A stretch of 64,000 bases of DNA. It comes from an uncultured Chromatiales bacterium. Lineage in GTDB: Bacteria > Bacteroidota > Ignavibacteria > SZUA-365. Made by a program: the position numbers and the translations under genes. Below, one piece after another: positions 14,690 through 61,783 of this stretch. The stretch's first letter is position 1; every line of letters begins with the position of its first letter. The stretch lies in contig CAYLZD010000002.1 in the NCBI GenBank assembly GCA_964388275.1, forward strand, positions 131,089 through 195,088, read 5' to 3'. The notes under the pieces are model-generated. The model worked only from the letters and a program-made list of their open reading frames with translations, was not told where the DNA came from and made no database searches.

Positions 14690-14752
14690 GCCGATATAAA
14701 GGATGCCTTTGCAGACGCTCCGGGTGCAAAATTGAGCCGGGAGGTGCATGAT

Positions 14753-15421: not shown

Positions 15422-15434
15422 CGGCGCCGCCGGC

Positions 15435-18064: not shown

Positions 18065-18065
18065 A

Positions 18066-19004
18066 TCAATAACGCCCGAGTATGAAACCTGCCGAATAGA
18101 GCATGGCGTACACCAGGAGAAATCGGCCGGTGGACGCCAACGCCTCGTTCAACACAGGACCTTCCTTCGACGTCGACATCACACGCAAAATCCTGAATCC
18201 GAGCGGCAGACACAGCGCGGGGAACAGAAGCCTCGGATTCCGCAAAGCCAGCGCCTGCATCGCCGGAAACAGACCGGCAATGGCCAGCATAGACGCAAAC
18301 TCGACGCGCGTCCACTTCCTGCCTATGCGCACGGCCATCGTTTTTTTTCCCGCTTCCCTGTCCGTGTCGATGTCCCGATAATTGTTGACCACGAGTATGG
18401 CCGTGGTCAGCGCGCCGATGGGAAGCGACGCCCCGAATGCCGTCCACGAGAAGTGGAGGGATTGAACGTAGTGCGCGCCCGTGACGGCGACAATGCCGAA
18501 GAAGACGAATACGAATACATCGCCGAGGCCGTTGTACGCCAGCGGGAAAGGTCCGGCTGTATATAGCACGGCGCATGCCAGAGAAAGAACGCCCGCCGCG
18601 AATACGGGCCATCCGGCTATCGCGACGAGATAAAGTCCGAGCACGAAAGTTGTGCCAAGTGTGAGCAGCATTGCGTTTCTCACCCTGCGCGGCGCGATCA
18701 ATCCGCTTTGTGTCACCCGTATCGGGCCCAATCTTTTCTCGGTATCTGCGCCCTTGATGAAGTCGAAATAATCATTCGCTAGGTTCGTCCCGATTTGGAT
18801 GAGCATTGCGCAGACTAGAGCAACAAGCGCGGGCAGAAACGAGAATACATCCTCCGACCATGCGACGGCCGAACCGACCAGGATGGGCGCCGCCGACGCC
18901 GGCAGCGTTTTCGGACGCGTGGCGAGCACCCATGCTTGCGCGCGGGATATCGGCCGTCCGGTCGGTCCCGCGGTGTCGGCGCCGCCGTGTTTGTCCGCAT
19001 GCAT
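18066..19004 (-). CDS. menA: 1,4-dihydroxy-2-naphthoate polyprenyltransferase (UbiA family)
   Basis: Polytopic UbiA-type prenyltransferase with Asp-rich motifs (NDYFDFIKGAD; NNYRDIDTD). Start ATG 19004 (MHADKHGG...). Confidence 0.8.
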   Translation of the reverse strand: MHADKHGGADTAGPTGRPISRAQAWVLATRPKTLPASAAPILVGSAVAWSEDVFSFLPALVALVCAMLIQIGTNLANDYFDFIKGADTEKRLGPIRVTQSGLIAPRRVRNAMLLTLGTTFVLGLYLVAIAGWPVFAAGVLSLACAVLYTAGPFPLAYNGLGDVFVFVFFGIVAVTGAHYVQSLHFSWTAFGASLPIGALTTAILVVNNYRDIDTDREAGKKTMAVRIGRKWTRVEFASMLAIAGLFPAMQALALRNPRLLFPALCLPLGFRILRVMSTSKEGPVLNEALASTGRFLLVYAMLYSAGFILGRY

Positions 19005-19026
19005 CAGCGTTTGCGTTTGCTTCTTG

Positions 19027-19872
19027 TCACCAGGGAAGCCAGGGGAATGAACGAAAGTTCGGCTTTCGCTTCTCCACGTACGCATTCTTGCCTTCCTGGG
19101 CCTCCTCGGACATATAGTACAGTAAAGTGGCGTTTCCGGACAGTTCCTGAATGCCCGCCTGTCCGTCGAGTTCCGCATTGAACGCGGATTTGAGTAGTCT
19201 TATGGCGAGCGGGGATTTTTCGAGTATCTCCAAAGCCCAGGTCACGCCTTCCTGCTCGAGTTGATCCACCGGGACGACCGCGTTGACAAGGCCCATTTCA
19301 AAGGCCTCACGGGCGTTGTAACGGCGGCACAGATACCAGATTTCCCTCGCCCGTTTCTGCCCGACCAGCCGGGCCAGATACGAGGCGCCGAAACCACCGT
19401 CGAAACTTCCGACGCGCGGACCTGTTTGGCCGAAAACGGCATTGTCGGCCGCTATAGTCAGGTCGCAGACCACGTGAAGCACGTGCCCTCCGCCGATGGC
19501 GAAACCCGCTACCAAAGCGATGACGGGCTTGGGCATCGTGCGTATCAGTCTCTGGAGTTCGAGCACGTGCAATCTTGGCGGACCGCCCTCGGACGACATA
19601 TAGCCCGCATTCCCGCGTATCCGCTGGTCGCCTCCGCTGCAGAATGCGTATTTCCCGTCGCTTGCCGGCCCTTCTCCGGTCAGAAGCACCACTCCGGTGG
19701 AAGTATCGCAGGCGGCGATCCGGAATGCGTCGAGAAGTTCATCGAGCGTTTCGGGACGAAAAGCGTTCCGCACCTCCGGACGGTTGATGGCGATGCGGGC
19801 CACGCCCTCGTCGCATCCCTGAAATGTTATGTCGCCGTACTCCTTGATGGCGCGCCATTTCACGTTTTTCAT
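19027..19872 (-). CDS. menB: 1,4-dihydroxy-2-naphthoyl-CoA synthase
   Basis: Crotonase fold with MenB signatures ([24 protein letters not shown]; [11 protein letters not shown]; SMSEEAQEG). Confidence 0.9.
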
Positions 19873-19949
19873 GTCATACTCCGGAGTGCTTCATTTTCTG
19901 TTTATGGGGCTGGAGAATCCTTTTCTGTGTTGCTTGTGTCGCCGTTCCT

Positions 19950-22595
19950 TCATATGCCGTCCCAGAATCCGTCAAGCGCTGCGGCCACGGCTTCGGGGGA
20001 TTCGGCGGGCGCGTCATGGCCGCAGTCCGGCACTATTACGAGCTTCGAATCCGGAATAAGTTCCGCCATGCGTCTGGAAATATCGGAATAAACGCCGTCT
20101 CGATCACCCGCGATCACGAGTGTCGGGATGGTCAGGCCGGGCAGGACTGTCCACAAGGGATTCATCGCTCCCTGTCCCAGCCCCTCGAGAGCGAGCGCAT
20201 ATCCGGCGGAGCTTCCGCTCATACGCTCGTTCTTTTCTCTTCTTCGCGCGGTTTCCATGTGAACACGGCGTGTCAGAACAGGATTGCCGGCCCATCCGTC
20301 CACGAAACTCTCCAGTCCTTCTTCGAGGATCCTTCGCGCAAGGCGTCGGTCCTCGACGAGGCGCCGTTCCCTGGCGGCTTGATCTTCGATTCCCGGGGAT
20401 GCGCTGATCAGCGCCAGGCCGGCGACGCGTTCAGGATGCGACAGGGCGAAGTGCAGAGCCGCGCGGCCACCCAGCGAATAGCCGGCAAGATGCGCTCTGT
20501 CGGTCCCTATGCGGTCGAGAACGGAAAGAAGCATATCGTCAAGGCGTTCGAACGAGTACCATTCCACGCTTTGCGGACAGGGCGAGGATCCGTGTCCGGG
20601 CAGGTCTACCGCAATTACGGAACGGCCGGCCGACATGAATTTCGCGGCTTGTTCCCACGATGCCCCGCTCCTTGTGAATCCGTGCAGGAGAATTACAGGC
20701 GCCAGGCGCCCGGGCCCTCGTCTGAGCAAACGCCATGCAAGAGCCGCCGCTTCCGCTTCGTCGCTTGTAGTCGATGAGCGGAGGACCGGCCGGTCTTCCA
20801 ACGCTTTTTCAACTTTACCGGCCACGAAGGCCCGCATCGAGCGCGCTGCTTCGGTATTCGACCTGAATTCGATTATACGGGTTCCTGAGGCCGCGACCGA
20901 AGCTTCGAGAAGGCGGCTGTAATGTCCGGCATCCTCGGCCGAGTGGTACTCGATGCGAAAGGCCCGCGCTATTGCTTCGAGGTTCATCCCGTGCGGTGTG
21001 ACGAAGTGTTCGGTGAAAGCCGGCTCGAATTCACGAACGGCCAGCTGGTTGAAAATTTCCCCCCCGTTGTTGTTGATCACCACAATGGTGAGCGCGGCGT
21101 CGGAATTCCTGCACGCAAGCAGTCCGTCCAGATCGTGCAGAAAGGCGATATCGCCGGTGAGAAGAACTGTTGTGCCGCCGCGGGCCCTGGCGATTCCGGT
21201 CGCCGTGGCAGTGATGCCGTCGATTCCGTTGACGCCCCGGTTGAAAAAGACGTCGATATCGTGTTTCGATGAGGTCAGGTAGGTCTCAAGATCGCGTATG
21301 GGCATGCTGCTGGAAACCACAAGAGCCGCGCCGTCGGGCAACACGGCGTGGAGGCGGTGATATGCCTCGCCCACGAAAGCGTCGTCCAGGCCCTCCAGGG
21401 CGTCCGCGAGAGCGGCTCGGGTTTCGGCATCGGCCGCGACAATGCGCCGAGCCCACGAATGGTCGAAGGCGCCGTGCGGGCGTTGTTCAAACTCGTCCGC
21501 CAGCGCCTCCAGCAGAAGGGAGGGTTCGGTGGCGATTTGCGCGGATACCAGATGGTCGGGATCGTTGCGGCGAATGGAATTCGATATCGCGATCTGTTCC
21601 GCCTCTTCGCAGGATGCGAGGAATTTTTGAAGCGCGTCAGTAGTCGGCGCGGCGCCGAGCCGCAGGATCAGATCGGGACGAATAGTCTTCGCAAAAGCCG
21701 GAATCGACAAGGCTGCCGCGGCGCCTCCGAGAACGAGTTCCGCCCGCATCGGATCGAAGCGGAGCTGCGATGAGGCTTCCGCAAAAACCGGTGTTCCGAC
21801 AGCCGCGGCGAAGCGGCCCGCTGCGCGGCGGGCCCTTCGGCCGCGCGAATCCGGGCCCGCGATGACCAGGATTCGCTTGTGGAGACGCAGCGCGTCGGCG
21901 ACTCGGGCGACGAGCAGCGCATCCGGGCCGGCGTTCCCATCGACGAATTTCTGCCACGGCCGCCCGTAGCGGCGGCCTGCTATCGCGGATTCCGCCTCCG
22001 CTGAAAGCGTTTCCGGCAGGGCTGCATGGCCTGCGGCAACCGGTGTGGGTTCCAGAGGTTTTCGAAAGGGAATGTTCAGATGAACCGGGCCCGGGGATCG
22101 GCGGTCGTTGCAGAGCGCTATCGCATAACATGCCGTCGATCTCAGGGCGCGGAGTTTGTGCGCATCGGCTTCCGGCTGCGCCGACTCGCTGAACCAGCGG
22201 ACATGCCTTCCGTATAGATGCGTCTGGTCCATGGTCTGCGGCGCGCCGGAGTCCCGTAAATGAGCCGGCCTGTCCGCTGTGAGTATCAGCAACGGCGCAT
22301 CGGACAGATTCGCTTCGCACACCGCCGGAAGATAATTCGCTGCGGCGGTGCCTGACGTGCAGAGCAGAGCGGCGGGGTTGCCGTCGCCTTTGGCAAGACC
22401 GAGCGCGACGAAGCCGGCCGCCCTTTCGTCGATCACCGAATGTGCAGTGATATCGGGATGATTCGAGAAGGCCAGGACCAGCGGTGTCGAGCGGGCGCCC
22501 GGAGATATCACAACACGGCGCAGTCCGCATCGCGCCAGCTCGTCGACGAGGACCCGCGACCAGAGAGTGTTGATATTAGGGAAGTCGGCCTGCAT
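19950..22595 (-). CDS. menD: Bifunctional MenD (SEPHCHC synthase, ThDP-dependent) fused to MenH (SHCHC synthase, alpha/beta hydrolase)
   Basis: N-terminal ~560 aa is a ThDP enzyme with MenD N-terminus (WSRVLVDELARCGLRRVVISPGARSTPL). C-terminal ~280 aa is an alpha/beta hydrolase (ILLHGFTRSGASW, GYSLGGRAAL nucleophile elbow, C-terminal His). Confidence 0.85.
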   Translation of the reverse strand: MQADFPNINTLWSRVLVDELARCGLRRVVISPGARSTPLVLAFSNHPDITAHSVIDERAAGFVALGLAKGDGNPAALLCTSGTAAANYLPAVCEANLSDAPLLILTADRPAHLRDSGAPQTMDQTHLYGRHVRWFSESAQPEADAHKLRALRSTACYAIALCNDRRSPGPVHLNIPFRKPLEPTPVAAGHAALPETLSAEAESAIAGRRYGRPWQKFVDGNAGPDALLVARVADALRLHKRILVIAGPDSRGRRARRAAGRFAAAVGTPVFAEASSQLRFDPMRAELVLGGAAAALSIPAFAKTIRPDLILRLGAAPTTDALQKFLASCEEAEQIAISNSIRRNDPDHLVSAQIATEPSLLLEALADEFEQRPHGAFDHSWARRIVAADAETRAALADALEGLDDAFVGEAYHRLHAVLPDGAALVVSSSMPIRDLETYLTSSKHDIDVFFNRGVNGIDGITATATGIARARGGTTVLLTGDIAFLHDLDGLLACRNSDAALTIVVINNNGGEIFNQLAVREFEPAFTEHFVTPHGMNLEAIARAFRIEYHSAEDAGHYSRLLEASVAASGTRIIEFRSNTEAARSMRAFVAGKVEKALEDRPVLRSSTTSDEAEAAALAWRLLRRGPGRLAPVILLHGFTRSGASWEQAAKFMSAGRSVIAVDLPGHGSSPCPQSVEWYSFERLDDMLLSVLDRIGTDRAHLAGYSLGGRAALHFALSHPERVAGLALISASPGIEDQAARERRLVEDRRLARRILEEGLESFVDGWAGNPVLTRRVHMETARRREKNERMSGSSAGYALALEGLGQGAMNPLWTVLPGLTIPTLVIAGDRDGVYSDISRRMAELIPDSKLVIVPDCGHDAPAESPEAVAAALDGFWDGI

Positions 22596-22647
22596 CTTGG
22601 ATTAAGATTTTGCGGCACATGTCGTGGCGCGGGCGGCCGTTCGCGGC

Positions 22648-24024
22648 TCAGCCCTGGGCAAGCGCGGAGAGCACGGCTTGCATCTTGAAACGGGTTTCGT
22701 CCACCTCCTGCTTTATAGAACTGTCCGCGAGTATGCCCGCTCCGCCGTAAAGAAGGGCGCTGCGCTCATGGAGCAGCGCCGCCCTTATGGTGACGGCCGC
22801 GTCGCCGTTTCCGTTGCCGTCGAACCAGCCGGCCGCGCCTGCAAAGCGGCCGCGTGTAAAATTCTCAAGGGTTCTGATCATCCCAAGCGCCGTGTCCCTG
22901 GGAGCGCCGCAAACCGCTGGTGTCGGATGAAGCAGCGCCACGGCGTCCGTCAGCATTTTTCCTTCCTTCAGCAGGCCTTTCAAAGGCGTGACAAGATGCT
23001 GCACGTTCCGGAGGCGGAGAATTTCGGGGGAATCCATTTTCACTTCGTCGCAGATTTCACCGAGAACATGGTGGATCATTTCAACTACCAGCGAATGCTC
23101 CTTCCAGATTTTCGCGTTCGTCTGAAGCTGCCTTCTGTTGTTCTGCTCCTCGACGAGGTTTTTTCCGGTGGGCATCGTGCCGGCCATTGCGACTGCGCTG
23201 ATGCGGCCGCCATCGACGGCCGCCAGGCGCTCGGGCGTCGCGCTCATGAAACAGACATCGGGGGCCGGACAGTTGGCGTAAAGAAAGCAATCGGTGTAAC
23301 CGTCGTTCAGCGCCCGCAGGACTCGCGGAAGAATTATCGGCCGTTCCGGCTTCACCAGAGCCCTGCGCGCAAGCACCACTTTATCGATAGCTCTCCGCCT
23401 GAGCGAACGTACCGCCTGTTCCACCACGATCGTGAACGGCGCCTCGTTCCATTCGAGCTCGGCACACAACGGTTCGGATGCAACGGGCATTTCACAGTCA
23501 TCCGCCTTTTCCAGGAGCGGCAATCGCCGTTTCCACCCGTTCACGTCCTCGAAACCGCCCGCAAGCGAAACCACTGCCCCATGCTCGTCCTGGCGGAGAA
23601 GAAATGAAGGTATAACGAATTCGACGGCCGGAAAATCCTTCCATTCCACTGCGTCGTTTCGGTCTGCTGGATCGAAATGAAGCGAGAAAAATGCGCGGTG
23701 TTTTCGTTCGTGCTTTCCGTTCTCGAGCGCGCCTCTCGTCCATTCGGCGCTTTCCCTGAATTCGTTTCTCCAATCAGTCCTGCCGCCAGGCAAGCTCAGG
23801 GCGGCCGCGACGCCGGCGGCGATCATGAACTCGTTTTCCGGCGAGCGCCAGAGAATGACCGGGCCTCGTCCCAACTGACGAAGATGATCGAAGACCGCAA
23901 CCGGCGATGCGAACGGAGTGTGATCGATGAACTCCGTATGCGAAGGCCTGCAAATGCGCGCTGCGCCGGGATCCGGTGGTGGCATGTTCGCTTCCATTGC
24001 CGGAAATTCGCGTTTCCCGACCAC
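22648..24024 (-). CDS. menF: Isochorismate synthase
   Basis: Chorismate-binding enzyme C-terminal core (FAGAAGWFDGNGNGDAAVTIRAALL...SALLYGGAGI..S....E..E...K). Placed upstream of menD. Confidence 0.85.
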   Translation of the reverse strand: MVGKREFPAMEANMPPPDPGAARICRPSHTEFIDHTPFASPVAVFDHLRQLGRGPVILWRSPENEFMIAAGVAAALSLPGGRTDWRNEFRESAEWTRGALENGKHERKHRAFFSLHFDPADRNDAVEWKDFPAVEFVIPSFLLRQDEHGAVVSLAGGFEDVNGWKRRLPLLEKADDCEMPVASEPLCAELEWNEAPFTIVVEQAVRSLRRRAIDKVVLARRALVKPERPIILPRVLRALNDGYTDCFLYANCPAPDVCFMSATPERLAAVDGGRISAVAMAGTMPTGKNLVEEQNNRRQLQTNAKIWKEHSLVVEMIHHVLGEICDEVKMDSPEILRLRNVQHLVTPLKGLLKEGKMLTDAVALLHPTPAVCGAPRDTALGMIRTLENFTRGRFAGAAGWFDGNGNGDAAVTIRAALLHERSALLYGGAGILADSSIKQEVDETRFKMQAVLSALAQG

Positions 24025-53552: not shown

Positions 53553-55760
53553 TCAGGTTCCGCTTTCGTATCGGTCTATCATGTCCTGAATCTCCCTGTC
53601 GTCCGGCCGGAATTCACAGCTCTCCCGATACCGCCTGAGCGTGTGCAGGGCTTTTTCCCTGTCGCCGTAGACGTCATGATATATCGCGGCCAGATCCGTG
53701 AAGGCCTTGCTGAATTCGCAGGGCGCCAGCGACAGCGTGCGCTCCAAAAACACGACGGCCGAGGCGTGATCGCCGGCCCGGGCGTACGCAGTCCCCGCCA
53801 TGAACGCCAACAGCGGCTCCTCGGTATCGGGAGTCAGCGAGCGGCGCATGATCGCGGCCCTTGTGGCGACGTCCAGGTCGCCCCGCAGATACGAGTAGTA
53901 AACGCCGAGCGACGGCCAGTCGTCGATCGCGGTGTCGAATTTCTCCAGCATGCCCCCGGCGATGTCGCCGTGTCCCGCATTGCGCGCCAGCACCAGCGCC
54001 GCGACGATGGTTTCGGTCAATCTGTCCGGAGGAATGTGACGGTAGTCGTCCGCGGGGAAGGGTTTCCGCGCGGCGTCCAGCAATTCGTCGAGCAGAGCTT
54101 TCCACATCGCGCCTCTGTTCGTCGAGTCCTTGCTTTCCCCCGCGATGCGCATCAGCATCCGGTATCCGTCTCGTCTCAACACGCCCGTTTTCACGCCGCG
54201 AAGGGCGGCGTCGAATTCCCTGACCCCGTTTCGCTCGCCCAGATGGAACTGGCGGAGGTTCTCATAGCTGCGGTAACTGTTCCAGGGCAGCACGCTGCCG
54301 GCGTACATGTCGGCGAGATCCGAAAAGCGCTCCGCGGAGGCGCGGCCGGCGTTCAGTCCTATCCAGGGCGCGATGTGCCCGGCGGTGAACAGCAGCAGCG
54401 CGGGGATCAATAATCCGGCCCGCGTTTGAAGTGTCCGGCCGCCGTTCAGCAGCATGTCCAATCCGAGGAATGCGAACGCAGTAAGCGCCGCCGCCGGGAT
54501 GTCCCAATCCTGGGCCATGCCGTAACGGGCGTTGCCGCCGAGGGCCAGCAAAAATGCTCCGAAAGCCGCCAGAGCGAAGAAACGGAAGGAAGGCCTTGCC
54601 GCGCAGTCCTTCCGGATCGCCGGCGAGAACAGTAAAAAAGGGAACAGGCACCAGACGCCGGCGTTCAGGTAGATCGTGTTGAACAGGTCCGCGATGCGGG
54701 CGGCCGAAAATAGGGTGTAAGAAGTGCTTCCCTCACGAATCCCGTTGTTGACGATCGACTCTTCGGACAGCGGGGTCACGAATTCGCGCAGCAAGACCAA
54801 AGCGCCGCTCTCGCGCAGAACGAGCAGAGCGGCGAAGCCCGCCGCCGCCAGAGCGGCCGCCTGCCAAGCCCGGCGCGCGGACCTCTTTCCGTCGCGGCCG
54901 TCGATGATCAGCAACAGCAGGGCCGGCAGGAAAACTGTCGAGGACAGGCCGAACAACGCGGCCGCCGTCAGTAAAACCGCGGGCGGCCATACGGATCCTC
55001 CGTGCCTGTAATAACTCCAGGCCGACAGGAGGAATGCGACGGTGAATCCGTATTGCAGATGGTACAATTCGACGTACCGGAAAAAGAACAGCGTTCCCCC
55101 GCAGCCGAGCACGCCCGCCGCGGTCGTGAGCGCCGCCGGCATGCGTTCCTTTCTCAGGAATACGGCCAGCGCCGCCGCGACCACCGCGAGACTCAACGCG
55201 CTGAGCCATGCGAAGGGCTCGTACAGAGTCTCGAAATTCGTGTTTCTCACAACAGCATGAAGCGCAACGCCCGTCAGCCATGTGCTGGGCTTGAGAAAAA
55301 AATCCGATCCCGCCGGATCCCTGTCGAGGCGCAGCACTTCCGACAGGCACAGCCGCCCGTCGCCGAGCAAGGCGCTGAACACCGGGAACAGCCAGGCCGA
55401 GACGCCGATTATCAGCGCGGCCGTGAGCCCCGCCCATATTCCAGCGCCTCCCGGAAACAACTTCTCCGTCCTCCGCAACGCGGCGTCTGCCGGCCCTGCT
55501 ACCGCCGGAACTAGGAGAAGAAAAGGCGCCGCCAGCAGAATGGGAATGAAGATGCCGTCGTCGATGTATCGGGGGAAATCCACGCCCCAGACGCGGGGAA
55601 GCAGACCCGGGAGCAGGACGAACAGCAGACGCGCCGCCGTCGCCGAGGCGGTCAGTATGATCAGCGCCTTCCCGGACGGCGGGAATTTTTCGGATGCGGC
55701 GTCCGCGGCCGGGCGGGTTTCCTTTCCGCTCCGGGCCCTCCGCTGTTTGTTATTTTTCAT
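53553..55760 (-). CDS. Large polytopic membrane protein with a C-terminal TPR region (DUF2723/PMT-like glycosyltransferase-family candidate)
   Basis: About 12 predicted TM helices over ~480 aa, followed by TPR-like repeats (AIYHDVYGDREKALHTLRRY..). Convergent with the glycan cluster. Confidence 0.5.
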   Translation of the reverse strand: MKNNKQRRARSGKETRPAADAASEKFPPSGKALIILTASATAARLLFVLLPGLLPRVWGVDFPRYIDDGIFIPILLAAPFLLLVPAVAGPADAALRRTEKLFPGGAGIWAGLTAALIIGVSAWLFPVFSALLGDGRLCLSEVLRLDRDPAGSDFFLKPSTWLTGVALHAVVRNTNFETLYEPFAWLSALSLAVVAAALAVFLRKERMPAALTTAAGVLGCGGTLFFFRYVELYHLQYGFTVAFLLSAWSYYRHGGSVWPPAVLLTAAALFGLSSTVFLPALLLLIIDGRDGKRSARRAWQAAALAAAGFAALLVLRESGALVLLREFVTPLSEESIVNNGIREGSTSYTLFSAARIADLFNTIYLNAGVWCLFPFLLFSPAIRKDCAARPSFRFFALAAFGAFLLALGGNARYGMAQDWDIPAAALTAFAFLGLDMLLNGGRTLQTRAGLLIPALLLFTAGHIAPWIGLNAGRASAERFSDLADMYAGSVLPWNSYRSYENLRQFHLGERNGVREFDAALRGVKTGVLRRDGYRMLMRIAGESKDSTNRGAMWKALLDELLDAARKPFPADDYRHIPPDRLTETIVAALVLARNAGHGDIAGGMLEKFDTAIDDWPSLGVYYSYLRGDLDVATRAAIMRRSLTPDTEEPLLAFMAGTAYARAGDHASAVVFLERTLSLAPCEFSKAFTDLAAIYHDVYGDREKALHTLRRYRESCEFRPDDREIQDMIDRYESGT

Positions 55761-55925
55761 GCCTGTGCCGCTTGGGGGAGTCGTTTCACGGAACTTTTCC
55801 GGCTTGACCGCCCGGGGCAAATATAGCAAGGCCGCCGGCACATATCATCGCTTTGCGGCGGCCTCGAAAGAGGACGGCCGCCCTGTCCGGACGGCCGTCT
55901 CTCTATGCTCGATACGGTGGGGGAA

Positions 55926-57257
55926 TCAGAGCTTGCTGACGAAATCGTCCAGCACGGTTTTCAGGGACGGTTCGCCGATTTCCTGCAGCTCGTAAGCAAC
56001 GCGCACAGCGGGCTTCGAAATCTTGATTATGCGCTTGAGATCTATCGGAGTGCCGATTATCACGATGTCGCAAGGCGTCTTGGCTATGGTCGTTTCGAGG
56101 TCTTTCACCTGCTTCGCGCCGTAACCCATGGCCGGGAGCAGCACGCCGATCTCCGGATAAATCTCGAAAGTCTTCTTGATGGTTCCGACGGCGTAGGGAC
56201 GGGGATCGATTATGTCGTCAGCGCCGAATTTCTGCGCCGCTATCATGCCGGCGCCGAATTTCATTTCGCCGTGCGTGAGCGTGGGGCCGTCCTCCACGAC
56301 CAGCGCCTTCTTGCCCGTTATCATGTCTCCCCGTTCGACGATTATGGGCGAAGCCGCGTCGATGATACGCGCGCGGGGATTGACGGAGCGTATGTTTTCG
56401 CGGAGTTCCAGCACCTCGTCGGCGCCGGCCGTGTCGATCTTGTTGATGATGACGACATCGGCGAGTCTGAGATTGGCTTCGCTGGGATAATACCCCAACT
56501 CGTCGCCGACGCGGAGCGGATCGGCCACCACAATGTGCATGTCGGGCTTGTAGAACGGCAGATCGTTGTTGCCGCCGTCCCAGAGTATCACGTCGGCTTC
56601 CTTCTCCGCCTTCTCGAGTATGGCGGCGTAGTCCACGCCGGAGTAGATCACCGTCCCGCTGACGATATGCGGTTCGTACTCTTCCATTTCCTCGATGGTG
56701 CACTCGTGTTTCTTCAGGTCGGCCGTGGAGCCGAAGCGCTGCACTTTCTGCTTGTCGAGATCGCCGTAAGGCATGGGGTGCCGGATGGCCACCACTTTGA
56801 GGCCCATTTCCTGGAGTAGCCGCGCGACTTTGCGCGTGGTCTGGCTCTTGCCGCTCCCCGTGCGGACCGCGCAGACCGAGATCACTGGCTTCCTGCTGCG
56901 TATCATGGTCGGCTCGGCGCCGAGGAATTTGAAATGCGCGCCGGCGGCCACCGCGCGCATGCCGATGCCCATGACATGGTCGTAATTGACGTCGCTGTAG
57001 GCGAACACTACTTCCTGAACGGCGTGCTTCGCGATCCATTTCTCGAGTTCGCGTTCCTCGATGATGGGAATGCCCTTGGGGTACAGCTTGCCGGCCAGCG
57101 AGGCGGGATACTTGCGGCCGGCTATGTCCGGTATCTGAGCCGCCGTGAAGGCGATGACGTTATAAAGATGGTTGTCGCGGTAGACGACGTTGAAATTGTG
57201 GAAATCGCGGCCGGCGGCCCCTACGATGATCGTGTTGATGCGTGTTGTTTCGGGCAT
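55926..57257 (-). CDS. DUF1611-family P-loop protein (cyclic 2,3-diphosphoglycerate-synthetase-like)
   Basis: Walker A VRTGSGKSQTT, DGGNND. Overall resemblance to the cDPGS/DUF1611 family is from memory, not from a search. Confidence 0.55.
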   Translation of the reverse strand: MPETTRINTIIVGAAGRDFHNFNVVYRDNHLYNVIAFTAAQIPDIAGRKYPASLAGKLYPKGIPIIEERELEKWIAKHAVQEVVFAYSDVNYDHVMGIGMRAVAAGAHFKFLGAEPTMIRSRKPVISVCAVRTGSGKSQTTRKVARLLQEMGLKVVAIRHPMPYGDLDKQKVQRFGSTADLKKHECTIEEMEEYEPHIVSGTVIYSGVDYAAILEKAEKEADVILWDGGNNDLPFYKPDMHIVVADPLRVGDELGYYPSEANLRLADVVIINKIDTAGADEVLELRENIRSVNPRARIIDAASPIIVERGDMITGKKALVVEDGPTLTHGEMKFGAGMIAAQKFGADDIIDPRPYAVGTIKKTFEIYPEIGVLLPAMGYGAKQVKDLETTIAKTPCDIVIIGTPIDLKRIIKISKPAVRVAYELQEIGEPSLKTVLDDFVSKL

Positions 57258-57293: not shown

Positions 57294-58490
57294 TCAGTCT
57301 CTTGCCAGCACGACTTCCCGGATGCGCTCCGCCGCCCAGTCGATGTCTTCCTTCGAGATGATCAACGGGGGCGCGAAACGTATCACGTTGTCGTGGGTTT
57401 CCTTGCAGAGTATGCCGGCTTTCATGAGGTCCTCGCAGTACGGACGGGCCTGGGTGTCGAGCACGAAGCCGATCCAGAGTCCGCGCCCTCTGACTTCCAC
57501 CACATGCCTGCTCGGAATCTCACGCAGGCGCTTCATCAGATAGGATCCGAGTTCCGCGGATCTCTCGGGAAGTTTTTCTTCCACCAGAACGGACAACGCG
57601 GCACGCGCCACCGCCGCGCCGAGTGGGTTTCCGCCGAAGGTGGAACCGTGATCGCCCGGCTTGAAGACGCCCAGTATCCCGCGGCTCGACAGCACGGCGG
57701 ATACCGGATAGAATCCTCCTGAAAGCGCCTTGCCGATGATGACCATGTCCGGCCTGATGCCCTCGTATTCGAAGGCGAAAAGACGGCCGCTGCGCCCGAG
57801 GCCGGATTGTATCTCGTCGCAGATGAGCAGCACGTTGTTCTGACGGCAGATCTCGGCGGCCTCGCGCAGATAGCCCTCGGGCGGGACGATGATGCCCGCT
57901 TCGCCCTGTATCGGCTCCACCAGGAAAGCCGCGGTGTCGGGCGTGACGGCCGCTCGTAGCGCCTCGATGTCGCCGTACTTCACTATGGGGAAACCCGGAG
58001 TGAGGGGGCCGAAGGATTCCCTGTACTGGGGCTCGGTGGAAAAGCTGACGATCGTGACAGTGCGCCCGTGGAAATTGTCGGACGCGCAGATGATCTCGGC
58101 CTTGCCGTCGGGTATGCCTTTCACGGTGTATCCCCATTTGCGCGCGGCCTTGACCGCGGTTTCCACCGCTTCCGCGCCGGAATTCATGGGCAGCGACATC
58201 TCGTAGCCGGTGAGGTCGTGCAGTTGCTTGTACAGGAGCGGCAGCTGGTCGTTGCGGAAAGCGCGGCTCGTCAGCGTGACGTTCTTCGCCTGAGAGACGA
58301 AGGCCTCCATGATCTTGGGATGGCAATGACCCTGGTTCACGGCCGAGTATGCGGCGAGGCAGTCCAGATAGCGGTTGCCTTCCACGTCGGTCACCCACGC
58401 TCCGCTCGCTTCCCTGATTACCACGTCCAGAGGATGATAGTTGTGCGCGCCGTAAAGATCTTCGAGCGCGATGTAGTCTTGTGTTTTCAT
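57294..58490 (-). CDS. argD: Acetylornithine (class III) aminotransferase
   Basis: PLP fold with LLICDEIQSGLGRSGRLFAFE and the IGKALSGG lysine motif. Confidence 0.85.
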   Translation of the reverse strand: MKTQDYIALEDLYGAHNYHPLDVVIREASGAWVTDVEGNRYLDCLAAYSAVNQGHCHPKIMEAFVSQAKNVTLTSRAFRNDQLPLLYKQLHDLTGYEMSLPMNSGAEAVETAVKAARKWGYTVKGIPDGKAEIICASDNFHGRTVTIVSFSTEPQYRESFGPLTPGFPIVKYGDIEALRAAVTPDTAAFLVEPIQGEAGIIVPPEGYLREAAEICRQNNVLLICDEIQSGLGRSGRLFAFEYEGIRPDMVIIGKALSGGFYPVSAVLSSRGILGVFKPGDHGSTFGGNPLGAAVARAALSVLVEEKLPERSAELGSYLMKRLREIPSRHVVEVRGRGLWIGFVLDTQARPYCEDLMKAGILCKETHDNVIRFAPPLIISKEDIDWAAERIREVVLARD

Positions 58491-58516: not shown

Positions 58517-59449
58517 TCAGTCTTCGTCGAAAAGCATCGTGAGCAGTGCCATGCGCACGTGCAGCCCGTTGCGCGCCTGGCGGAAATACGCCGCCCGGGG
58601 ATCGCAGTCAACCGCGGGATCGATCTCCACCGAGCGGGGCAACGGGTGCATCACTATGGCGTCCGGTTTCATGCGGCGGAGAACCCCGGCGTCGATGTCG
58701 TATCTGGACGTGTCCAGGTCGCGGCCGCCGAGGCGGTCCCGGTCGATGCGCGTCTGGTATACGACGTCCACCGAGGAAATTGCTCTTTCAGTCGAATTAA
58801 GCAGCTCGTAGGACACTTCGCGTTCGTCGAGGTAAGCGAGTATGTCGGGACGCATCTGCATTTCGTCCGGGGCGATGAAGTAGAGCTTCGTGCGCTCGAA
58901 CTTGGCCAGCAGGTAAGCGAGCGAGCGGGCCGTGCGGCCCCTATCGAGGGCGCCGATCAGAGCCACGGAGAGTCCGTCGAGTTTATTGCATTCGTCGTAG
59001 ATGGTGTAGAGATCCAGCAGGGCTTGCGTGGGATGCTGGCCTCCGGTTCCGTCGCCCGCGTTCACCACCGGCACAGGCGACACGGCGGCGGCGCGTTTGG
59101 CGCCCCCGTCTTCATGATGGCGCAACACTATCGCGTCGCAGTAATTGGCGATGATGCGTATCGTGTCCTCAATCTGCTCGCCCGCTACTTCCGATGAAAA
59201 CTCGCGGGCCTGCTCGGTGGAGAGCACGCGCCCGCCGAGCCGGCACATCGCCGCCTCGAAGGAGAAACGGGTCCGCGTGGAAGGCCTGTAAAACAGCGTG
59301 GCCATTATGCGGTTCTCGTAATCGCGGGTGCCGCCGCGCGCTGCTATCCGCGCCATGGCGCGGGTGCGCTCGAAAAGCTCCATGAGCAACGGCAGCGTGA
59401 ACTGTTGCGATTCTATTACGTGCGGCAGTTTCATTTCCGGAATCTCCAC
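58517..59449 (-). CDS. pyrB: Aspartate-carbamoyltransferase-like catalytic chain (ATCase/OTCase superfamily)
   Basis: STRTR, HPTQALLD, and C-terminal MHPLPRSVEI..AAYFRQARNG (ATCase-type HPLP, not OTCase HCLP). Confidence 0.65.
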   Translation of the reverse strand: MEIPEMKLPHVIESQQFTLPLLMELFERTRAMARIAARGGTRDYENRIMATLFYRPSTRTRFSFEAAMCRLGGRVLSTEQAREFSSEVAGEQIEDTIRIIANYCDAIVLRHHEDGGAKRAAAVSPVPVVNAGDGTGGQHPTQALLDLYTIYDECNKLDGLSVALIGALDRGRTARSLAYLLAKFERTKLYFIAPDEMQMRPDILAYLDEREVSYELLNSTERAISSVDVVYQTRIDRDRLGGRDLDTSRYDIDAGVLRRMKPDAIVMHPLPRSVEIDPAVDCDPRAAYFRQARNGLHVRMALLTMLFDED

Positions 59450-59455
59450 GTCTTG

Positions 59456-60406
59456 TCAGGGGTGAATGTGCGTCCCGGCCGCTCCGTCCAGCGCGTCGAG
59501 GAGATGTTCGTAGGAGGTGATGATGACCTCCTTTCCGCCTGCGGCCAGGAAGCGCAGGGCTGATTCGACTTTGGGACCCATGCTGCCCGGCGGAAATTGC
59601 CCTTCCTCGTAGTGCCTGCGCATCTCCCCGGCCGGAATCCGGTCCAGTCCTCTCTGCGAGGGTTTCTTGAAGTCGAGATACACTTTGTCCGCGTCGGTGC
59701 TTATCACGAAAAGGTCCACACCCAATTCGAGCGCGAGAAGCGCGGAGGCGCGGTCCTTGTCTATCACCGCCTCGCAGCCGTCCACGCGGTGGTTTTCCCT
59801 CTCGATGACGGGTATGCCGCCTCCGCCCAGGGCGATGACTATCATGCCGAGATCCAGCACGGTCTTTATCACGTCCTTCTCGAAAACGTCCACAGGTTCG
59901 GGCGAGGGCACCACGCGTCTCCAGCCGCGCGCGGAATCTTCCACCACGTCCCAGCCGAGCAGCCGCCTTTTCTCCTCGGCGACGCGCTTTGTGTAGAAGG
60001 GTCCTATTGGCTTGGTGGGATTCCGGAAGGCCGGATCCAGGGGATCTACGCGCACCTGCGTGAGCACGGTCATGACCGGCGTGTTCAGACCGGCGAGGCG
60101 GAGTTCCTCCTCCATTGCGCGTTGCAGCAGATAGCCGATCTCGCTTTGCGTGGTCGCCACACACACGTCGAGCGGATGCGTGTAAACCTCGCCGGCGGCG
60201 CGCTCGGACCGCAGCAGGGCGGCGCCCACCTGGGGTCCGTTGCCGTGCGTGATCACGATGCGCCAGCCGCGCTCCACCATGCGGACGATGCTCCGCGCAG
60301 TGGCATGGGCGTTTGCGAGCTGTTCGCCGATTATGCCGCGTTCGCCCGCGCGTATGAGGGAATTTCCGCCGATGGCGACGAGCGCCGTGCGGATCTGGGG
60401 CGGCAT
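59456..60406 (-). CDS. arcC: Carbamate kinase
   Basis: ALVAIGGNSL...VITHGNGPQVG N-terminal signature and amino-acid-kinase fold, ~315 aa. Confidence 0.85.
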   Translation of the reverse strand: MPPQIRTALVAIGGNSLIRAGERGIIGEQLANAHATARSIVRMVERGWRIVITHGNGPQVGAALLRSERAAGEVYTHPLDVCVATTQSEIGYLLQRAMEEELRLAGLNTPVMTVLTQVRVDPLDPAFRNPTKPIGPFYTKRVAEEKRRLLGWDVVEDSARGWRRVVPSPEPVDVFEKDVIKTVLDLGMIVIALGGGGIPVIERENHRVDGCEAVIDKDRASALLALELGVDLFVISTDADKVYLDFKKPSQRGLDRIPAGEMRRHYEEGQFPPGSMGPKVESALRFLAAGGKEVIITSYEHLLDALDGAAGTHIHP

Positions 60407-60409
60407 GGC

Positions 60410-61327
60410 TTACTTCATCAGTTCGTGCATCACTGCTTTCTGCACGTGCAGGCGGTTCTCGGCTTCCTGGAAAACAACCGAATACGGAGCGTCGATGACC
60501 TCGTCCGTCACTTCATCGCCGCGATGCGCGGGCAGGCAGTGCATGAATACGGCGTCGCTCTTCGCATGCGACATCAGCTCGGCGTTCACCTGGAAGGGAC
60601 GGAACACCGATTTGCGCGCCTCTGTCTCCGTTTCCTGACCCATCGAAGCCCAGACGTCGGTGTAAACGGCGTCGGCGCCCCTGACACCCGCTGCCGGGTC
60701 GTTCACGACTTCAATGACGGCGCCGGTGCTCTTGCCGTCCTCCGCCGCCTGCTCGTAAGCCGAGGCGTTGGGTTCGTAGCCGCTCGGGCACGCGATCGTG
60801 ACGTGCGCGCCCAGCCGCGCGCCGGCGAACATCAGCGAATGCGCCACGTTGTTGCCGTCACCCACGTAGGTCAGCTTGCGACCCTTGAGTTCGCCCTTGA
60901 GTTCGTACAGCGTGAAGAAGTCCGCCAATGCCTGGCAGGGATGCGAATAGTCGGTGAGACCGTTTATGACCGGCACCGAGGCGTGTTTCGCCATGTCGAT
61001 CACGATCTGATGCGCGAAGGTGCGGATCATTATGCCCTGCACCATGCGTTCGAGGTTCTTGGCCACGTCGTAAACCGATTCCCGCTTGCCGAGGCTGATT
61101 TCGGCCGGCGACAGGTAGAGCGAGTAACCGCCGAGCTGCTGTATGCCGATGTCGAAGGTCGTACGCGTGCGCAGCGAGGGTTTTTCGAAGATCATTGCGA
61201 GCGCCTTGCCTTTCAGCGCTTCTGCGTATTTCATGCGGTCGGCTTTCATGCCGGCCGCCAGGCGGAAGAGATCCAGGATTTCCTCGCCTGATACGTCCCT
61301 GATGCTCAGGAAGTCTTGTGCTTTCAT
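60410..61327 (-). CDS. argF: Ornithine carbamoyltransferase
   Basis: SLRTRTTF, HPCQALAD, DVWASMG, HCLPAHRGDEV motifs. Confidence 0.9.
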   Translation of the reverse strand: MKAQDFLSIRDVSGEEILDLFRLAAGMKADRMKYAEALKGKALAMIFEKPSLRTRTTFDIGIQQLGGYSLYLSPAEISLGKRESVYDVAKNLERMVQGIMIRTFAHQIVIDMAKHASVPVINGLTDYSHPCQALADFFTLYELKGELKGRKLTYVGDGNNVAHSLMFAGARLGAHVTIACPSGYEPNASAYEQAAEDGKSTGAVIEVVNDPAAGVRGADAVYTDVWASMGQETETEARKSVFRPFQVNAELMSHAKSDAVFMHCLPAHRGDEVTDEVIDAPYSVVFQEAENRLHVQKAVMHELMK

Positions 61328-61738: not shown

Positions 61739-61783
61739 GGTGAATATGGTGAATTCGGTGAATACGGTGAATGGGGTGATTTC
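61739..61783. repeat. 9-bp tandem repeat GGTGAATNN x5
   Basis: ggtgaatat ggtgaattc ggtgaatac ggtgaatgg ggtgatttc, read directly from the sequence. Confidence 0.9.

What the first reader, a model, noticed from the sequence alone, without database searches (positions are those of the whole stretch)
55926..57257. DUF1611/cDPGS-like P-loop protein as the terminal gene of the arginine operon
The family is annotated as cyclic 2,3-diphosphoglycerate synthetase after archaeal members. That function is unlikely in a bacterium, and bacterial members are essentially uncharacterised. Here the gene is co-oriented with argD and starts 36 bp after it. This guilt-by-association link suggests it supplies a missing arginine or ornithine step. 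A glutamate or ornithine acylation or ligation step is one candidate, since argA/argJ are absent from this operon. This is speculation from context only.
Basis: inference. Interest (0 to 1): 0.55.

Follow-up and report, generated by a model that had tools for sequence, protein, structure and literature searches.

The report
Bacterial arginine synthetase (ArcE) gene
The gene most likely encodes a bacterial version of arginine synthetase (ArcE), an enzyme first described in an archaeon in 2024 that turns arginine into citrulline while making ATP. It closes an operon that breaks arginine down for energy and building blocks, so this is a mis-annotated member of a known family rather than a new arginine-biosynthesis step.

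Summary
The ORF is real: 55926-57257, minus strand, 443 aa. It is the last of five tightly spaced co-oriented genes and starts 36 bp after the previous one. A strong hairpin follows its stop codon.

- The upstream "argD" is ornithine aminotransferase (rocD).
- The protein has no DUF1611 match.

The operon is OTC, carbamate kinase, aspartate carbamoyltransferase, ornithine aminotransferase, then the P-loop protein. It is not a biosynthetic arg operon.

The protein belongs to a very large, highly conserved family with no Pfam or NCBIfam model. Databases name it "GTPase" or "cyclic 2,3-diphosphoglycerate synthase". It is 45-48% identical over its full length to proteins of Hyperthermus and Pyrodictium. 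Michimori et al. (PNAS 2024) name those genera as carrying homologs of arginine synthetase ArcE (TK2200), which catalyses Arg + ADP + Pi <-> Cit + NH3 + ATP.

Across 80 genome loci, carbamate kinase lies within 5 kb in 31 and is directly adjacent in 20. A carbamate kinase-ArcE fusion also exists.

Verdict: a new, uncharacterised bacterial member of a known kind. I could not retrieve the TK2200 sequence for a direct alignment. One open point is that bacterial members carry an NKxD motif, which hints at GDP/GTP use.

The parts
55926..57257 (-). arcE-like gene: P-loop NTPase of 443 aa, predicted arginine synthetase (ATP/NTP-forming arginine deiminase). Walker A at residues 132-138, WDGGNND at 226-232, NKID at 272-275, EDxPTxTHG at 322-330.
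   Evidence: ORF. Full-length 48% and 45% identity to the Hyperthermus butylicus and Pyrodictium occultum proteins, genera named as arcE carriers in PMC11032458. 75 invariant columns across 59 bacterial and archaeal sequences. AF2 model pLDDT 91.8. Best PDB folds are cDPGS, then LpxK.
   Evidence: TIGR01885 scores 536 bits against a cutoff of 378. All argD models score below their cutoffs.
58517..59449 (-). pyrB-like aspartate carbamoyltransferase catalytic chain. The JGI gene call uses a start 15 nt downstream, giving 305 aa. No pyrI lies next to it.
   Evidence: TIGR00670 scores 281.8 bits against a cutoff of 236.95. Pfam OTCace_N and OTCace. Gene call in L081.
59456..60406 (-). arcC: carbamate kinase
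   Evidence: TIGR00746 scores 364.8 bits against a cutoff of 358.25.
60410..61327 (-). arcB/argF: ornithine carbamoyltransferase, first gene of the cluster
   Evidence: NF001986 scores 432.9 bits against 306, and TIGR00658 scores 402.9 against 280.85.
55869..55904 (-). GC-rich hairpin about 22 nt after the arcE-like stop codon; likely end of the transcription unit (weak T-tract)
   Evidence: Sequence. RNA fold -29.4 kcal/mol, z = -5.54, 0 of 200 shuffles as stable. Not called by the consensus terminator scan.

Best explanation
The gene encodes a bacterial ortholog of arginine synthetase ArcE, the family founded by Thermococcus kodakarensis TK2200.

Reaction. ArcE is a P-loop enzyme that reversibly converts L-arginine + NDP + Pi into L-citrulline + NH3 + NTP.

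Pathway in this operon.
1. ArcE converts arginine to citrulline and makes one NTP.
2. OTC phosphorolyses citrulline to ornithine and carbamoyl phosphate.
3. Carbamate kinase turns carbamoyl phosphate into a second ATP, or aspartate carbamoyltransferase diverts it into pyrimidine synthesis.
4. Ornithine aminotransferase sends ornithine to glutamate semialdehyde/P5C, and from there to glutamate or proline.
Together these form the 'arginine synthetase pathway'. It replaces the arginine deiminase pathway and yields 2 rather than 1 ATP per arginine.

What is shown here: gene order, family assignments of the four partner genes, full-length homology to archaeal proteins from genera reported to carry arcE, P-loop motifs, fold, and conserved linkage to carbamate kinase, OTC and ornithine catabolic genes.

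What is taken from the literature: the reaction itself, and the use of the pathway's carbamoyl phosphate for pyrimidines in T. kodakarensis.

What is inferred:
- That the bacterial protein has the same activity.
- That the net direction here is catabolic.
- The chemistry: Pi attack on the guanidinium carbon gives an O-phospho-isourea (phosphocitrulline) intermediate, which then phosphorylates NDP. This is proposed by analogy with other P-loop amidoligases such as adenylosuccinate synthetase and CTP synthetase, from my own knowledge and not tested.
For: 1. Operon composition. OTC, carbamate kinase, ATCase and ornithine aminotransferase all pass curated NCBIfam cutoffs. The gaps are 3-36 bp, and a hairpin follows the last gene.
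2. The protein has no Pfam or NCBIfam family. Sources name it 'predicted GTPase' or 'cDPGS'. The PNAS paper describes TK2200 homologs in the same terms: putative GTPase, with low similarity to cDPGS.
3. It shares 48% identity over 433 aa with one gap (E = 9e-151) with the Hyperthermus butylicus protein, and 45% with Pyrodictium occultum. The paper names both genera as having arcE homologs. 75 columns are invariant across 26 bacterial and 33 archaeal sequences.
4. Fold. In the AF2 model (pLDDT 91.8) the best PDB matches are cDPGS (E about 1e-18) and then Aquifex LpxK 4ehx/4lkv/4itn. LpxK is the enzyme family the paper found closest to the TK2200 model (4EHY).
5. Neighbourhood in 80 loci from many phyla. 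Carbamate kinase lies within 5 kb in 31 and is adjacent and co-oriented in 20. OTC is nearby in 10, ornithine aminotransferase in 11 and P5C dehydrogenase in 6. At least one of these or arginine deiminase is nearby in 39 of 80 loci, and in 27 of the 50 with 3 kb or more on both flanks.
6. A 766-aa protein fuses carbamate kinase (NF009007, 313.8 bits against 266) to this domain.
7. ATCase sits in this operon, and arcE-pyrB-pyrI is found in Bacteroidales. This matches the 2026 finding that the pathway supplies carbamoyl phosphate for pyrimidines.
8. Ornithine aminotransferase in the operon parallels ArcE supplying ornithine for proline in T. kodakarensis.
Against: - I could not retrieve the TK2200 sequence. 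The link to the characterised enzyme is therefore indirect, resting on genera named in the paper and on matching descriptions.
- No bacterial member has been assayed in any paper I could find.
- Bacterial members carry a canonical NKxD motif that most archaeal relatives lack, so nucleotide preference, and conceivably other properties, may differ.
- About half of the loci show no arginine-related neighbour.
- Two loci have an ADI-like gene directly upstream. This fits poorly with simple ADI/ArcE complementarity.
- Direction cannot be settled from 64 kb. The window contains no arcA, argG/H or carAB among the ORFs scanned, but the rest of the genome is unknown.
- The archaeal contexts I checked (Hyperthermus, Ignisphaera and a Thermoproteota MAG) showed no arcB or arcC neighbours.
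Confidence: 0.78

Rival explanations
1. Same enzyme, opposite physiological direction. ArcE acts as the arginine-forming step (citrulline + NH3 + NTP -> arginine) and replaces ArgG/ArgH. Carbamate kinase makes carbamoyl phosphate for OTC and ATCase, and ornithine aminotransferase makes ornithine from glutamate semialdehyde. This would be an acetyl-independent arginine route.
For: The reaction is reversible and supports arginine synthesis in vivo when citrulline is supplied. The paper proposes a biosynthetic role in bacteria that lack ArgG/ArgH. The operon contains every step from glutamate semialdehyde to arginine plus ATCase, a biosynthetic consumer of carbamoyl phosphate. The window has no argG/H among the scanned ORFs.
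Against: The measured equilibrium favours citrulline + ATP (Keq about 10), and the Ks for ammonia is in the millimolar range. In T. kodakarensis, carbamate kinase could not supply carbamoyl phosphate. The paper treats carbamate kinase as the catabolic signature. In other phyla the gene sits with P5C dehydrogenase, sucCD and ndk, which is a catabolic, energy-conserving context. The aminotransferase matches the catabolic rocD equivalog.
Confidence: 0.17
2. One reading: the protein supplies a missing early arginine/ornithine biosynthetic step, such as an ATP- or acetyl-CoA-dependent glutamate or ornithine acylation or ligation that substitutes for argA/argJ.
For: Only the co-orientation with arginine-related genes and the absence of argA/argJ from the cluster.
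Against: The upstream gene is rocD, not argD, and the cluster has no acetyl-cycle genes at all. The conserved partner across phyla is carbamate kinase, not arg biosynthetic genes. The characterised family member acts on arginine and citrulline, is specific for L-arginine, and does not use amino-acid donors.
Confidence: 0.02
3. A true cyclic 2,3-diphosphoglycerate synthetase, as many database entries name it.
For: NCBI names on many homologs. cDPGS is the best PDB sequence and fold match.
Against: Sequence similarity is local (about 110 aa; E = 1.8e-6 with the single sequence and 7e-14 with the profile). Structural identity is 15-16%, with TM 0.43-0.46. The 2,3-DPG-contacting P-loop residues K145/R146 of cDPGS align to invariant T133/G134. 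cDPG is known only from hyperthermophilic methanogens (abstract of PMC10690619), whereas this family spans many bacterial phyla and is linked to carbamate kinase and OTC.
Confidence: 0.01
4. A G3E/SIMIBI-type GTPase that acts as a chaperone or regulator (like HypB, UreG or MeaB) for carbamate kinase or the carbamoyltransferases, rather than as a metabolic enzyme.
For: A marginal Pfam cobW hit: 22 bits against a cutoff of 20.7, covering 60 residues. HypB, MeaB and UreG appear among the fold matches. The NKxD motif aligns with HypB INKID. A fusion to carbamate kinase exists.
Against: The match covers only the nucleotide-binding core. The protein has large, highly conserved extra N- and C-terminal domains with many invariant polar residues (GRDxH, RHPMxY, TxEExEExE, EDxPTxTHG), which are typical of substrate sites. 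The archaeal family member is a bona fide enzyme with kcat in the tens per second.
Confidence: 0.02

Closest known systems
Arginine synthetase ArcE (TK2200, Thermococcus kodakarensis; Michimori, Yokooji & Atomi, PNAS 2024, PMC11032458; Michimori et al., Front Microbiol 2026, PMC13260591)
   Same: - P-loop protein of about 440 aa with no Pfam family, annotated 'GTPase' or hypothetical.
- Weak similarity to cDPGS, with an LpxK-like core.
- Linked to OTC (arcB) and carbamate kinase (arcC).
- The pathway also feeds ornithine to proline/glutamate and carbamoyl phosphate to pyrimidines. In this window those branches are encoded in the same operon (rocD and pyrB).
- 45-48% full-length identity to proteins of archaeal genera reported to carry arcE.
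   Different: - Bacterial, probably mesophilic, from the Ignavibacteria/Bacteroidota group.
- All pathway genes are in one operon, whereas in T. kodakarensis arcE, arcB and arcC are dispersed (TK2200, TK0871, TK2158).
- An NKxD motif is present in the bacterial clade but is mostly [NT]K[VAI]S in the archaeal relatives I examined. TK2200p prefers ADP.
Arginine deiminase (ADI) pathway, arcABC
   Same: Same overall route: arginine -> citrulline -> ornithine + carbamoyl phosphate -> ATP, with the same OTC and carbamate kinase steps.
   Different: The first step is not the hydrolytic amidinotransferase-fold ArcA. It is a P-loop enzyme that conserves the deimination energy as NTP, giving 2 rather than 1 ATP per arginine. 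No arcA or arcD is present in the window.
Cyclic 2,3-diphosphoglycerate synthetase (Methanothermus fervidus; PDB 8ORK/8ORU; PMC10690619)
   Same: Closest solved structure. It shares the P-loop kinase C-terminal core, has an N-terminal alpha/beta domain, and uses ATP.
   Different: Only about 15% identity, TM about 0.45, and a local sequence match. The 2,3-DPG-binding K145/R146 are not conserved. The substrate, taxonomic range and gene context all differ.
Tetraacyldisaccharide 4'-kinase LpxK (Aquifex aeolicus; 4EHX/4EHY)
   Same: Second-best fold match (E about 1e-8, TMt 0.55-0.61). It has the same unusual P-loop kinase core.
   Different: LpxK is a membrane-associated lipid A kinase. It has no homology outside the core and no functional link.
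Argininosuccinate synthetase + lyase (ArgG/ArgH)
   Same: They interconvert the same end compounds in the synthetic direction (citrulline -> arginine) at the cost of ATP.
   Different: ArgG/ArgH need two enzymes, aspartate as nitrogen donor, and AMP + PPi chemistry on an unrelated fold. ArcE uses free ammonia and ADP + Pi chemistry in a single step.

Membership tests
Arginine synthetase ArcE (TK2200 family) | Full-length sequence homology to ArcE proteins | tested here: met
   48% identity over 433 aa with one gap (E = 9e-151) to Hyperthermus butylicus P0300, and 45% to Pyrodictium occultum P0336. The paper names both genera as arcE carriers. 75 invariant columns across 59 bacterial and archaeal sequences. 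Caveat: I assume these are the homologs the paper means.
Arginine synthetase ArcE (TK2200 family) | Direct orthology to the characterised protein TK2200 (alignment, or phylogeny with a cDPGS outgroup) | not testable with these tools
   The TK2200 sequence could not be retrieved. Three homolog searches returned no Thermococcales names. No supplements were held for the paper. There is no ArcE entry in the PDB.
Arginine synthetase ArcE (TK2200 family) | P-loop NTPase fold whose closest solved relatives are LpxK-type kinases, with low similarity to cDPGS | tested here: met
   Walker A RTGSGKS. AF2 pLDDT 91.8. Foldseek gives cDPGS at E = 3e-18, then LpxK 4lkv/4ehx/4itn at E = 1e-8 to 2e-7. The paper reports LpxK 4EHY as the comparable structure and low similarity to cDPGS.
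Arginine synthetase ArcE (TK2200 family) | Genomic association with arcB (OTC) and/or arcC (carbamate kinase) | tested here: met
   Same operon in the window. Carbamate kinase lies within 5 kb in 31 of 80 loci and is adjacent in 20 of 80. OTC lies within 5 kb in 10 of 80. A carbamate kinase-ArcE fusion exists, P0129.
Arginine synthetase ArcE (TK2200 family) | Complementary distribution with arginine deiminase (arcA absent where arcE is present) | tested here: inconclusive
   No arcA among the ORFs scanned in the 64-kb window or in 76 of 80 loci. The whole genome is unavailable. Two loci (L014, L017) have an ADI-like gene directly upstream.
Arginine synthetase ArcE (TK2200 family) | Catalysis of L-arginine + ADP + Pi <-> L-citrulline + NH3 + ATP | not testable with these tools
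   Needs an enzyme assay. No bacterial member has been assayed in the literature I searched.
Cyclic 2,3-diphosphoglycerate synthetase | Global sequence similarity to characterised cDPGS | tested here: not met
   phmmer E = 1.8e-6 (30.6 bits) over residues 216-325 only. The profile search gives E = 7e-14, still local. Structural alignment shows 15-16% identity and TM 0.43-0.46.
Cyclic 2,3-diphosphoglycerate synthetase | 2,3-DPG-contacting residues K145/R146 in the P-loop (PMC10690619) | tested here: not met
   In the HMMER alignment the cDPGS 'GTGKRxGKT' K-R pair aligns to T133-G134 of 'VRTGSGKS'. Both are invariant in the family.
DUF1611 (Pfam PF07755; TM0796, Ava_3511, DgcN) | Match to the Pfam DUF1611 model | tested here: not met
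   No hit even at E <= 10. There is only remote fold similarity: 2g0t at E = 5e-5, 2obn at 5e-4 and 7xrj at 1e-3, with TM about 0.22.
G3E GTPases (CobW/HypB/UreG/MeaB) | Full match to the nucleotide-binding domain model and a small chaperone-type architecture | tested here: inconclusive
   The cobW hit is 22.0 bits against a cutoff of 20.7, but covers only residues 240-299 (profile positions 117-179 of 180). NKxD aligns to HypB INKID. The architecture, with large conserved extra domains, differs.

The most novel reading that the evidence does not exclude
The bacterial clade is a nucleotide-specificity variant of arginine synthetase that forms GTP (Arg + GDP + Pi -> Cit + NH3 + GTP).

For:
- Bacterial members keep a canonical guanine-specificity NKxD motif, seen in 65 of 73 genome loci and 115 of 120 close homologs.
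- This motif aligns with the HypB G4 motif.
- Most archaeal relatives have [NT]K[VAI]S at that position, and the characterised archaeal enzyme prefers ADP.
- The frequent nearby ndk and sucCD genes would fit GTP/ATP balancing.

In this operon the enzyme would also be the hub of a single transcription unit that splits arginine into energy (carbamate kinase), pyrimidine precursor (ATCase) and glutamate/proline precursor (ornithine aminotransferase).
Probability: 0.3. Interest if true: 0.55.

Novelty: new member of a known kind. Interest (0 to 1): 0.38.

Why it matters
Arginine synthetase was described only in 2024 and has been studied in a single archaeon.

The family is very large. Yet it has no Pfam or NCBIfam model and is still named 'GTPase' or 'cyclic 2,3-diphosphoglycerate synthase'.

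As a result, metabolic reconstructions of Ignavibacteria, Bacteroidota, Acidobacteria, Marinimicrobia and many other phyla miss an energy-conserving arginine-to-citrulline step. They may wrongly score an 'incomplete ADI pathway', or miss a possible ArgG/ArgH-independent route to arginine.

This operon is an unusually complete bacterial example. It encodes ArcE, OTC and carbamate kinase plus the two branch enzymes, ATCase and ornithine aminotransferase. Genetics in Thermococcus showed that the corresponding branches depend on the pathway. It would therefore be a good candidate for the first biochemical test of a bacterial ArcE, including its nucleotide preference.

Tried and rejected
1. Before I found the literature, I considered that the P-loop protein might partner with carbamate kinase as a novel two-component carbamoyl-phosphate synthetase, with the P-loop enzyme forming carboxyphosphate/carbamate. 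I dropped this once the ArcE papers explained the carbamate kinase linkage.
2. I tried to obtain TK2200 or any Thermococcales sequence. Three homolog searches (window protein, a Thermoproteota relative, the Hyperthermus protein) and two cluster look-ups gave no Thermococcus names. The paper's supplements are not held.
3. The archaeal contexts of Hyperthermus, Ignisphaera and a Thermoproteota MAG showed no arcB or arcC neighbours and were uninformative.
4. My own ORF-based neighbourhood count undercounted in GC-rich loci. I replaced it with tblastn-based counts.
5. The promoter/terminator consensus scan and Rfam search around the operon gave nothing above background. The hairpin after the gene was found by reading the sequence and folding it.
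6. A scan of the other large ORFs in the window for arginine genes found none. This says nothing about the rest of the genome.
7. A literature search for arginine metabolism in Ignavibacterium found nothing useful.
Full report
**Observation**

The ORF at 55926-57257 on the minus strand is real: ATG start, 443 aa. It is the last of five co-oriented genes.

| Coordinates (minus strand) | Length | Assignment |
|---|---|---|
| 60410-61327 | 305 aa | OTC |
| 59456-60406 | 316 aa | carbamate kinase |
| 58517-59449 | 310 aa | aspartate carbamoyltransferase |
| 57294-58490 | 398 aa | ornithine aminotransferase |
| 55926-57257 | 443 aa | the P-loop protein |

About 22 nt after the stop codon lies a GC-rich hairpin (55904-55869). 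It folds at -29.4 kcal/mol, z = -5.5, and none of 200 shuffles is as stable. Its T-tract is weak, and the consensus terminator scan did not call it. The identical protein and the same gene order occur on three independent metagenome contigs.

**What the neighbours are**

Curated NCBIfam models identify all four upstream genes.

| Gene | Model | Score (bits) | Cutoff (bits) |
|---|---|---|---|
| OTC | NF001986 | 433 | 306 |
| Carbamate kinase | TIGR00746 | 364.8 | 358.25 |
| Aspartate carbamoyltransferase | TIGR00670 | 281.8 | 236.95 |
| Ornithine-oxo-acid aminotransferase | TIGR01885 | 536 | 378 |

No acetyl-cycle arg gene is in the cluster. None of the other large ORFs I scanned in the window is arginine-related. 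They encode RecQ, a menaquinone gene set, UvrA, sigma factors, sensor kinases and polysaccharide genes. 'Arginine operon' in the biosynthetic sense is therefore wrong. This is a cluster centred on carbamoyl phosphate, citrulline and ornithine.

**What the protein is not**

- *DUF1611.* It has no DUF1611 hit even at E <= 10. The only Pfam hit above threshold is a 60-residue marginal match to the CobW/HypB/UreG nucleotide-binding domain. It has no NCBIfam family. DUF1611 structures (2g0t, 2obn, DgcN 7xrj) appear only as remote P-loop matches with TM about 0.22.
- *cDPGS.* Against the PDB, the only meaningful sequence match is cDPGS. It is local, about 110 residues, at E = 1.8e-6 with the single sequence and 7e-14 with a family profile. 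The cDPGS P-loop residues K145/R146 clamp 2,3-DPG. They align to T133/G134, which are invariant in this family. The protein is a distant relative of cDPGS, not a cDPGS.

**The family**

The family is huge and strongly conserved.
- All 8,000 scored candidates were significant. The top 120 are 74-100% identical and come from Ignavibacteria/Bacteroidota-type MAGs. Their names are 'predicted GTPase', 'GTPase' or 'cyclic 2,3-diphosphoglycerate synthase'.
- 3,688 clusters at 50% identity match.
The best 80 are 62-80% identical. They come from Bacteroidota, Ignavibacteria, Acidobacteria, Marinimicrobia, Calditrichaeota, Zixibacteria, Chloroflexota, Spirochaetes, Firmicutes and others.

I used tblastn of seed proteins against the 80 loci.

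| Neighbour | Loci with it within 5 kb (of 80) |
|---|---|
| Carbamate kinase | 31 (adjacent and co-oriented in 20) |
| OTC | 10 |
| Ornithine aminotransferase | 11 (adjacent in 9) |
| P5C dehydrogenase (TIGR01236) | 6 |
| ADI-like genes | 4 |
| sucC | 17 |
| sucD | 14 |
| ndk | 12 |

At least one of carbamate kinase, OTC, ornithine aminotransferase, ADI or P5C dehydrogenase is nearby in 39 of 80 loci. The figure is 27 of the 50 loci with at least 3 kb on both sides.

As an inference, a single-copy gene such as carbamate kinase should fall inside a given 10-20 kb window of a genome of a few Mb in well under 1% of cases, so the enrichment is very large.

Recurrent arrangements are:
- OTC-CK-ATCase-OAT-X in Ignavibacteria, Bacteroidota and Acidobacteria, as in the window.
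- P5CDH-X-CK-sucC-sucD-ndk in Marinimicrobia and relatives.
- argS (divergent)-X-pyrB-pyrI in Bacteroidales.

One representative protein of 766 aa is a fusion of carbamate kinase (NF009007, 313.8 bits against 266) with this domain.

**Identification**

The linkage to carbamate kinase and OTC led me to Michimori, Yokooji & Atomi (PNAS 2024, PMC11032458). They started from the same puzzle: archaea that have arcC but no arcA. Their main findings were:
- TK2200 (ArcE) of Thermococcus kodakarensis catalyses L-arginine + ADP + Pi <-> L-citrulline + NH3 + ATP.
- Keq is about 10 toward citrulline + ATP.
- The enzyme is specific for L-arginine and free ammonia.
- It prefers ADP. Relative activities were CDP 38%, UDP 13% and GDP 8%.
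- Homologs were annotated as hypothetical or putative GTPase.
- Homologs show low similarity to cDPGS.
- The AlphaFold model resembles LpxK (4EHY).
- Some homologs lie near arcB/arcC.
- The family occurs widely in bacteria, including Bacteroidota, Acidobacteria and Caldithrix.

The follow-up paper (PMC13260591) shows that ArcE + ArcB supply carbamoyl phosphate for pyrimidine synthesis.

**Membership evidence obtained here**

- The window protein is 48% identical over 433 residues with a single gap (E = 9e-151) to the Hyperthermus butylicus protein. It is 45% identical to that of Pyrodictium occultum. The paper names both genera as arcE carriers.
- An alignment of 26 bacterial and 33 archaeal sequences has 75 invariant columns. 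They include GAxGRDxH (13-20), TGxGKS (133-138), RHPMxY (159-164), TxEExEExE (187-195), WDGGNND (226-232) and EDxPxxTHG (322-330).
- The AlphaFold2 model is confident (pLDDT 91.8, pTM 0.90). Its best PDB matches are cDPGS and then Aquifex LpxK, which reproduces the paper's structural description.
- I could not retrieve the TK2200 sequence. Orthology to the assayed protein is therefore inferred through these intermediates, not shown directly.

**How the operon most likely works**

1. ArcE converts arginine to citrulline and makes one NTP.
2. OTC phosphorolyses citrulline to ornithine and carbamoyl phosphate.
3. Carbamate kinase converts carbamoyl phosphate to a second ATP.
4. ATCase can instead take carbamoyl phosphate into pyrimidines.
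5. Ornithine aminotransferase moves ornithine to glutamate semialdehyde/P5C.

The last two branches are the ones shown genetically in T. kodakarensis to depend on ArcE: proline from ornithine, and pyrimidines from carbamoyl phosphate. Here they are encoded in the same transcription unit.

The catabolic direction is favoured by three things: the measured equilibrium, the presence of carbamate kinase and rocD, and the P5CDH/sucCD/ndk contexts elsewhere. The reaction is reversible, however, and the paper itself raises a biosynthetic role in some bacteria. Without the rest of the genome (arcA, argG/H, carAB) I cannot exclude that, and I give it about 0.17.

The proposed chemistry is my inference and was not tested. 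Pi attacks the guanidinium carbon to give an O-phospho-isourea intermediate, which then transfers its phosphoryl group to NDP. This follows the pattern of other P-loop amidoligases.

**A difference worth noting**

At residues 272-275 the bacterial proteins carry NK[IMV]D. This is seen in 65 of 73 genome-locus proteins and 115 of 120 close homologs. The archaeal relatives mostly have [NT]K[VAI]S there. The motif aligns with INKID of HypB.

In the GTPase superfamily, this Asp specifies guanine (established knowledge). The assayed archaeal enzyme prefers ADP, but I do not know its motif. Bacterial ArcE may therefore use GDP/GTP. This is untested and is the most novel reading that remains open.

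**Verdict**

Coordinates, P-loop, terminal position and the distant cDPGS relationship hold. The DUF1611 and argD labels do not.

The cDPGS label is wrong and the gene does belong to arginine metabolism. However, the step is arginine<->citrulline with nucleotide coupling, not an argA/argJ-like acylation, and the family already has a characterised founder.

It is a new, experimentally untested bacterial member of a known, recently discovered kind. Its main value is correcting a widespread mis-annotation and offering a compact bacterial operon for testing.

Noticed in passing
window 55926-57257, protein residues 272-275; loci L001-L080; proteins P0001-P0452: Bacterial ArcE-like proteins carry a canonical NKxD (G4-type) motif, seen in 65 of 73 genome loci and 115 of 120 close homologs. 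Archaeal relatives mostly have [NT]K[VAI]S. The motif aligns with INKID of HypB. This suggests a possible GDP/GTP preference in bacteria.
   Followed up: partly
L014:8711-9901 and L017:8743-9942 (also L042 and L058 on the opposite strand): An arginine-deiminase-like gene lies directly upstream of the arcE-like gene and is co-oriented with it. It scores 356 and 345 bits on the arcA models, below the cutoffs of 414 and 489. This is unexpected if ADI and ArcE simply substitute for each other.
   Followed up: partly
L030, L052, L061, L075, L077 (Bacteroidales/Bacteroidota MAGs): A conserved arrangement: arginine-tRNA ligase (divergent), then the arcE-like gene, then pyrB. pyrI follows pyrB in L075 and L077. 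The argS neighbour is seen in L052, L075 and L077. pyrB scores 375 bits on TIGR00670, pyrI 174 bits on TIGR00240 and argS 405 bits on TIGR00456. This is a bacterial echo of the link between ArcE and pyrimidine carbamoyl phosphate reported for Thermococcus.
   Followed up: partly
L012, L015, L033, L034, L069, L078 (Marinimicrobia, Nitrospina-like and other MAGs): A recurrent cluster: P5C dehydrogenase, arcE-like gene, carbamate kinase, sucC, sucD, ndk. It groups several substrate-level-phosphorylation and nucleotide-balancing enzymes with ArcE.
   Followed up: partly
protein P0129 (766 aa, representative library): An apparent natural fusion of carbamate kinase (residues 3-309) with an ArcE-like domain (329-754). 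I did not check at the DNA level whether it is a true fusion or a gene-calling artefact.
   Followed up: partly
protein P0225 (806 aa, representative library): An ArcE-like protein whose region before the equivalent of residue 154 contains intein and LAGLIDADG homing-endonuclease domains. The N-extein was not recognisable in the alignment.
   Followed up: partly
window 61745-61780 (minus strand), about 430 bp upstream of the OTC start: A short run of four 'ATTCACC' units spaced 8-9 nt apart (cattcaccgtattcaccgaattcaccatattcacc). It lies in a region of more than 1 kb with few convincing ORFs and lower G+C (0.50 for 62-64 kb). Function unknown.
   Followed up: no
window 13796-24024: A menaquinone-type gene set. 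It includes a DAHP-synthase-family protein, a UbiE methyltransferase, an AMP-binding ligase (menE-like), an enolase-superfamily protein (menC-like), a UbiA prenyltransferase (menA-like), an 881-aa fusion of a TPP enzyme with an alpha/beta hydrolase (menD-menH-like), and a chorismate-binding enzyme (menF-like).
   Followed up: no
window 53553-55841 (minus strand): A 762-aa ORF lies immediately downstream of the operon. It has no Pfam or NCBIfam match and looks from its sequence like a multi-pass membrane protein with a C-terminal soluble domain. JGI gene calls on related contigs split this region differently, into 510 + 251 aa.
   Followed up: no
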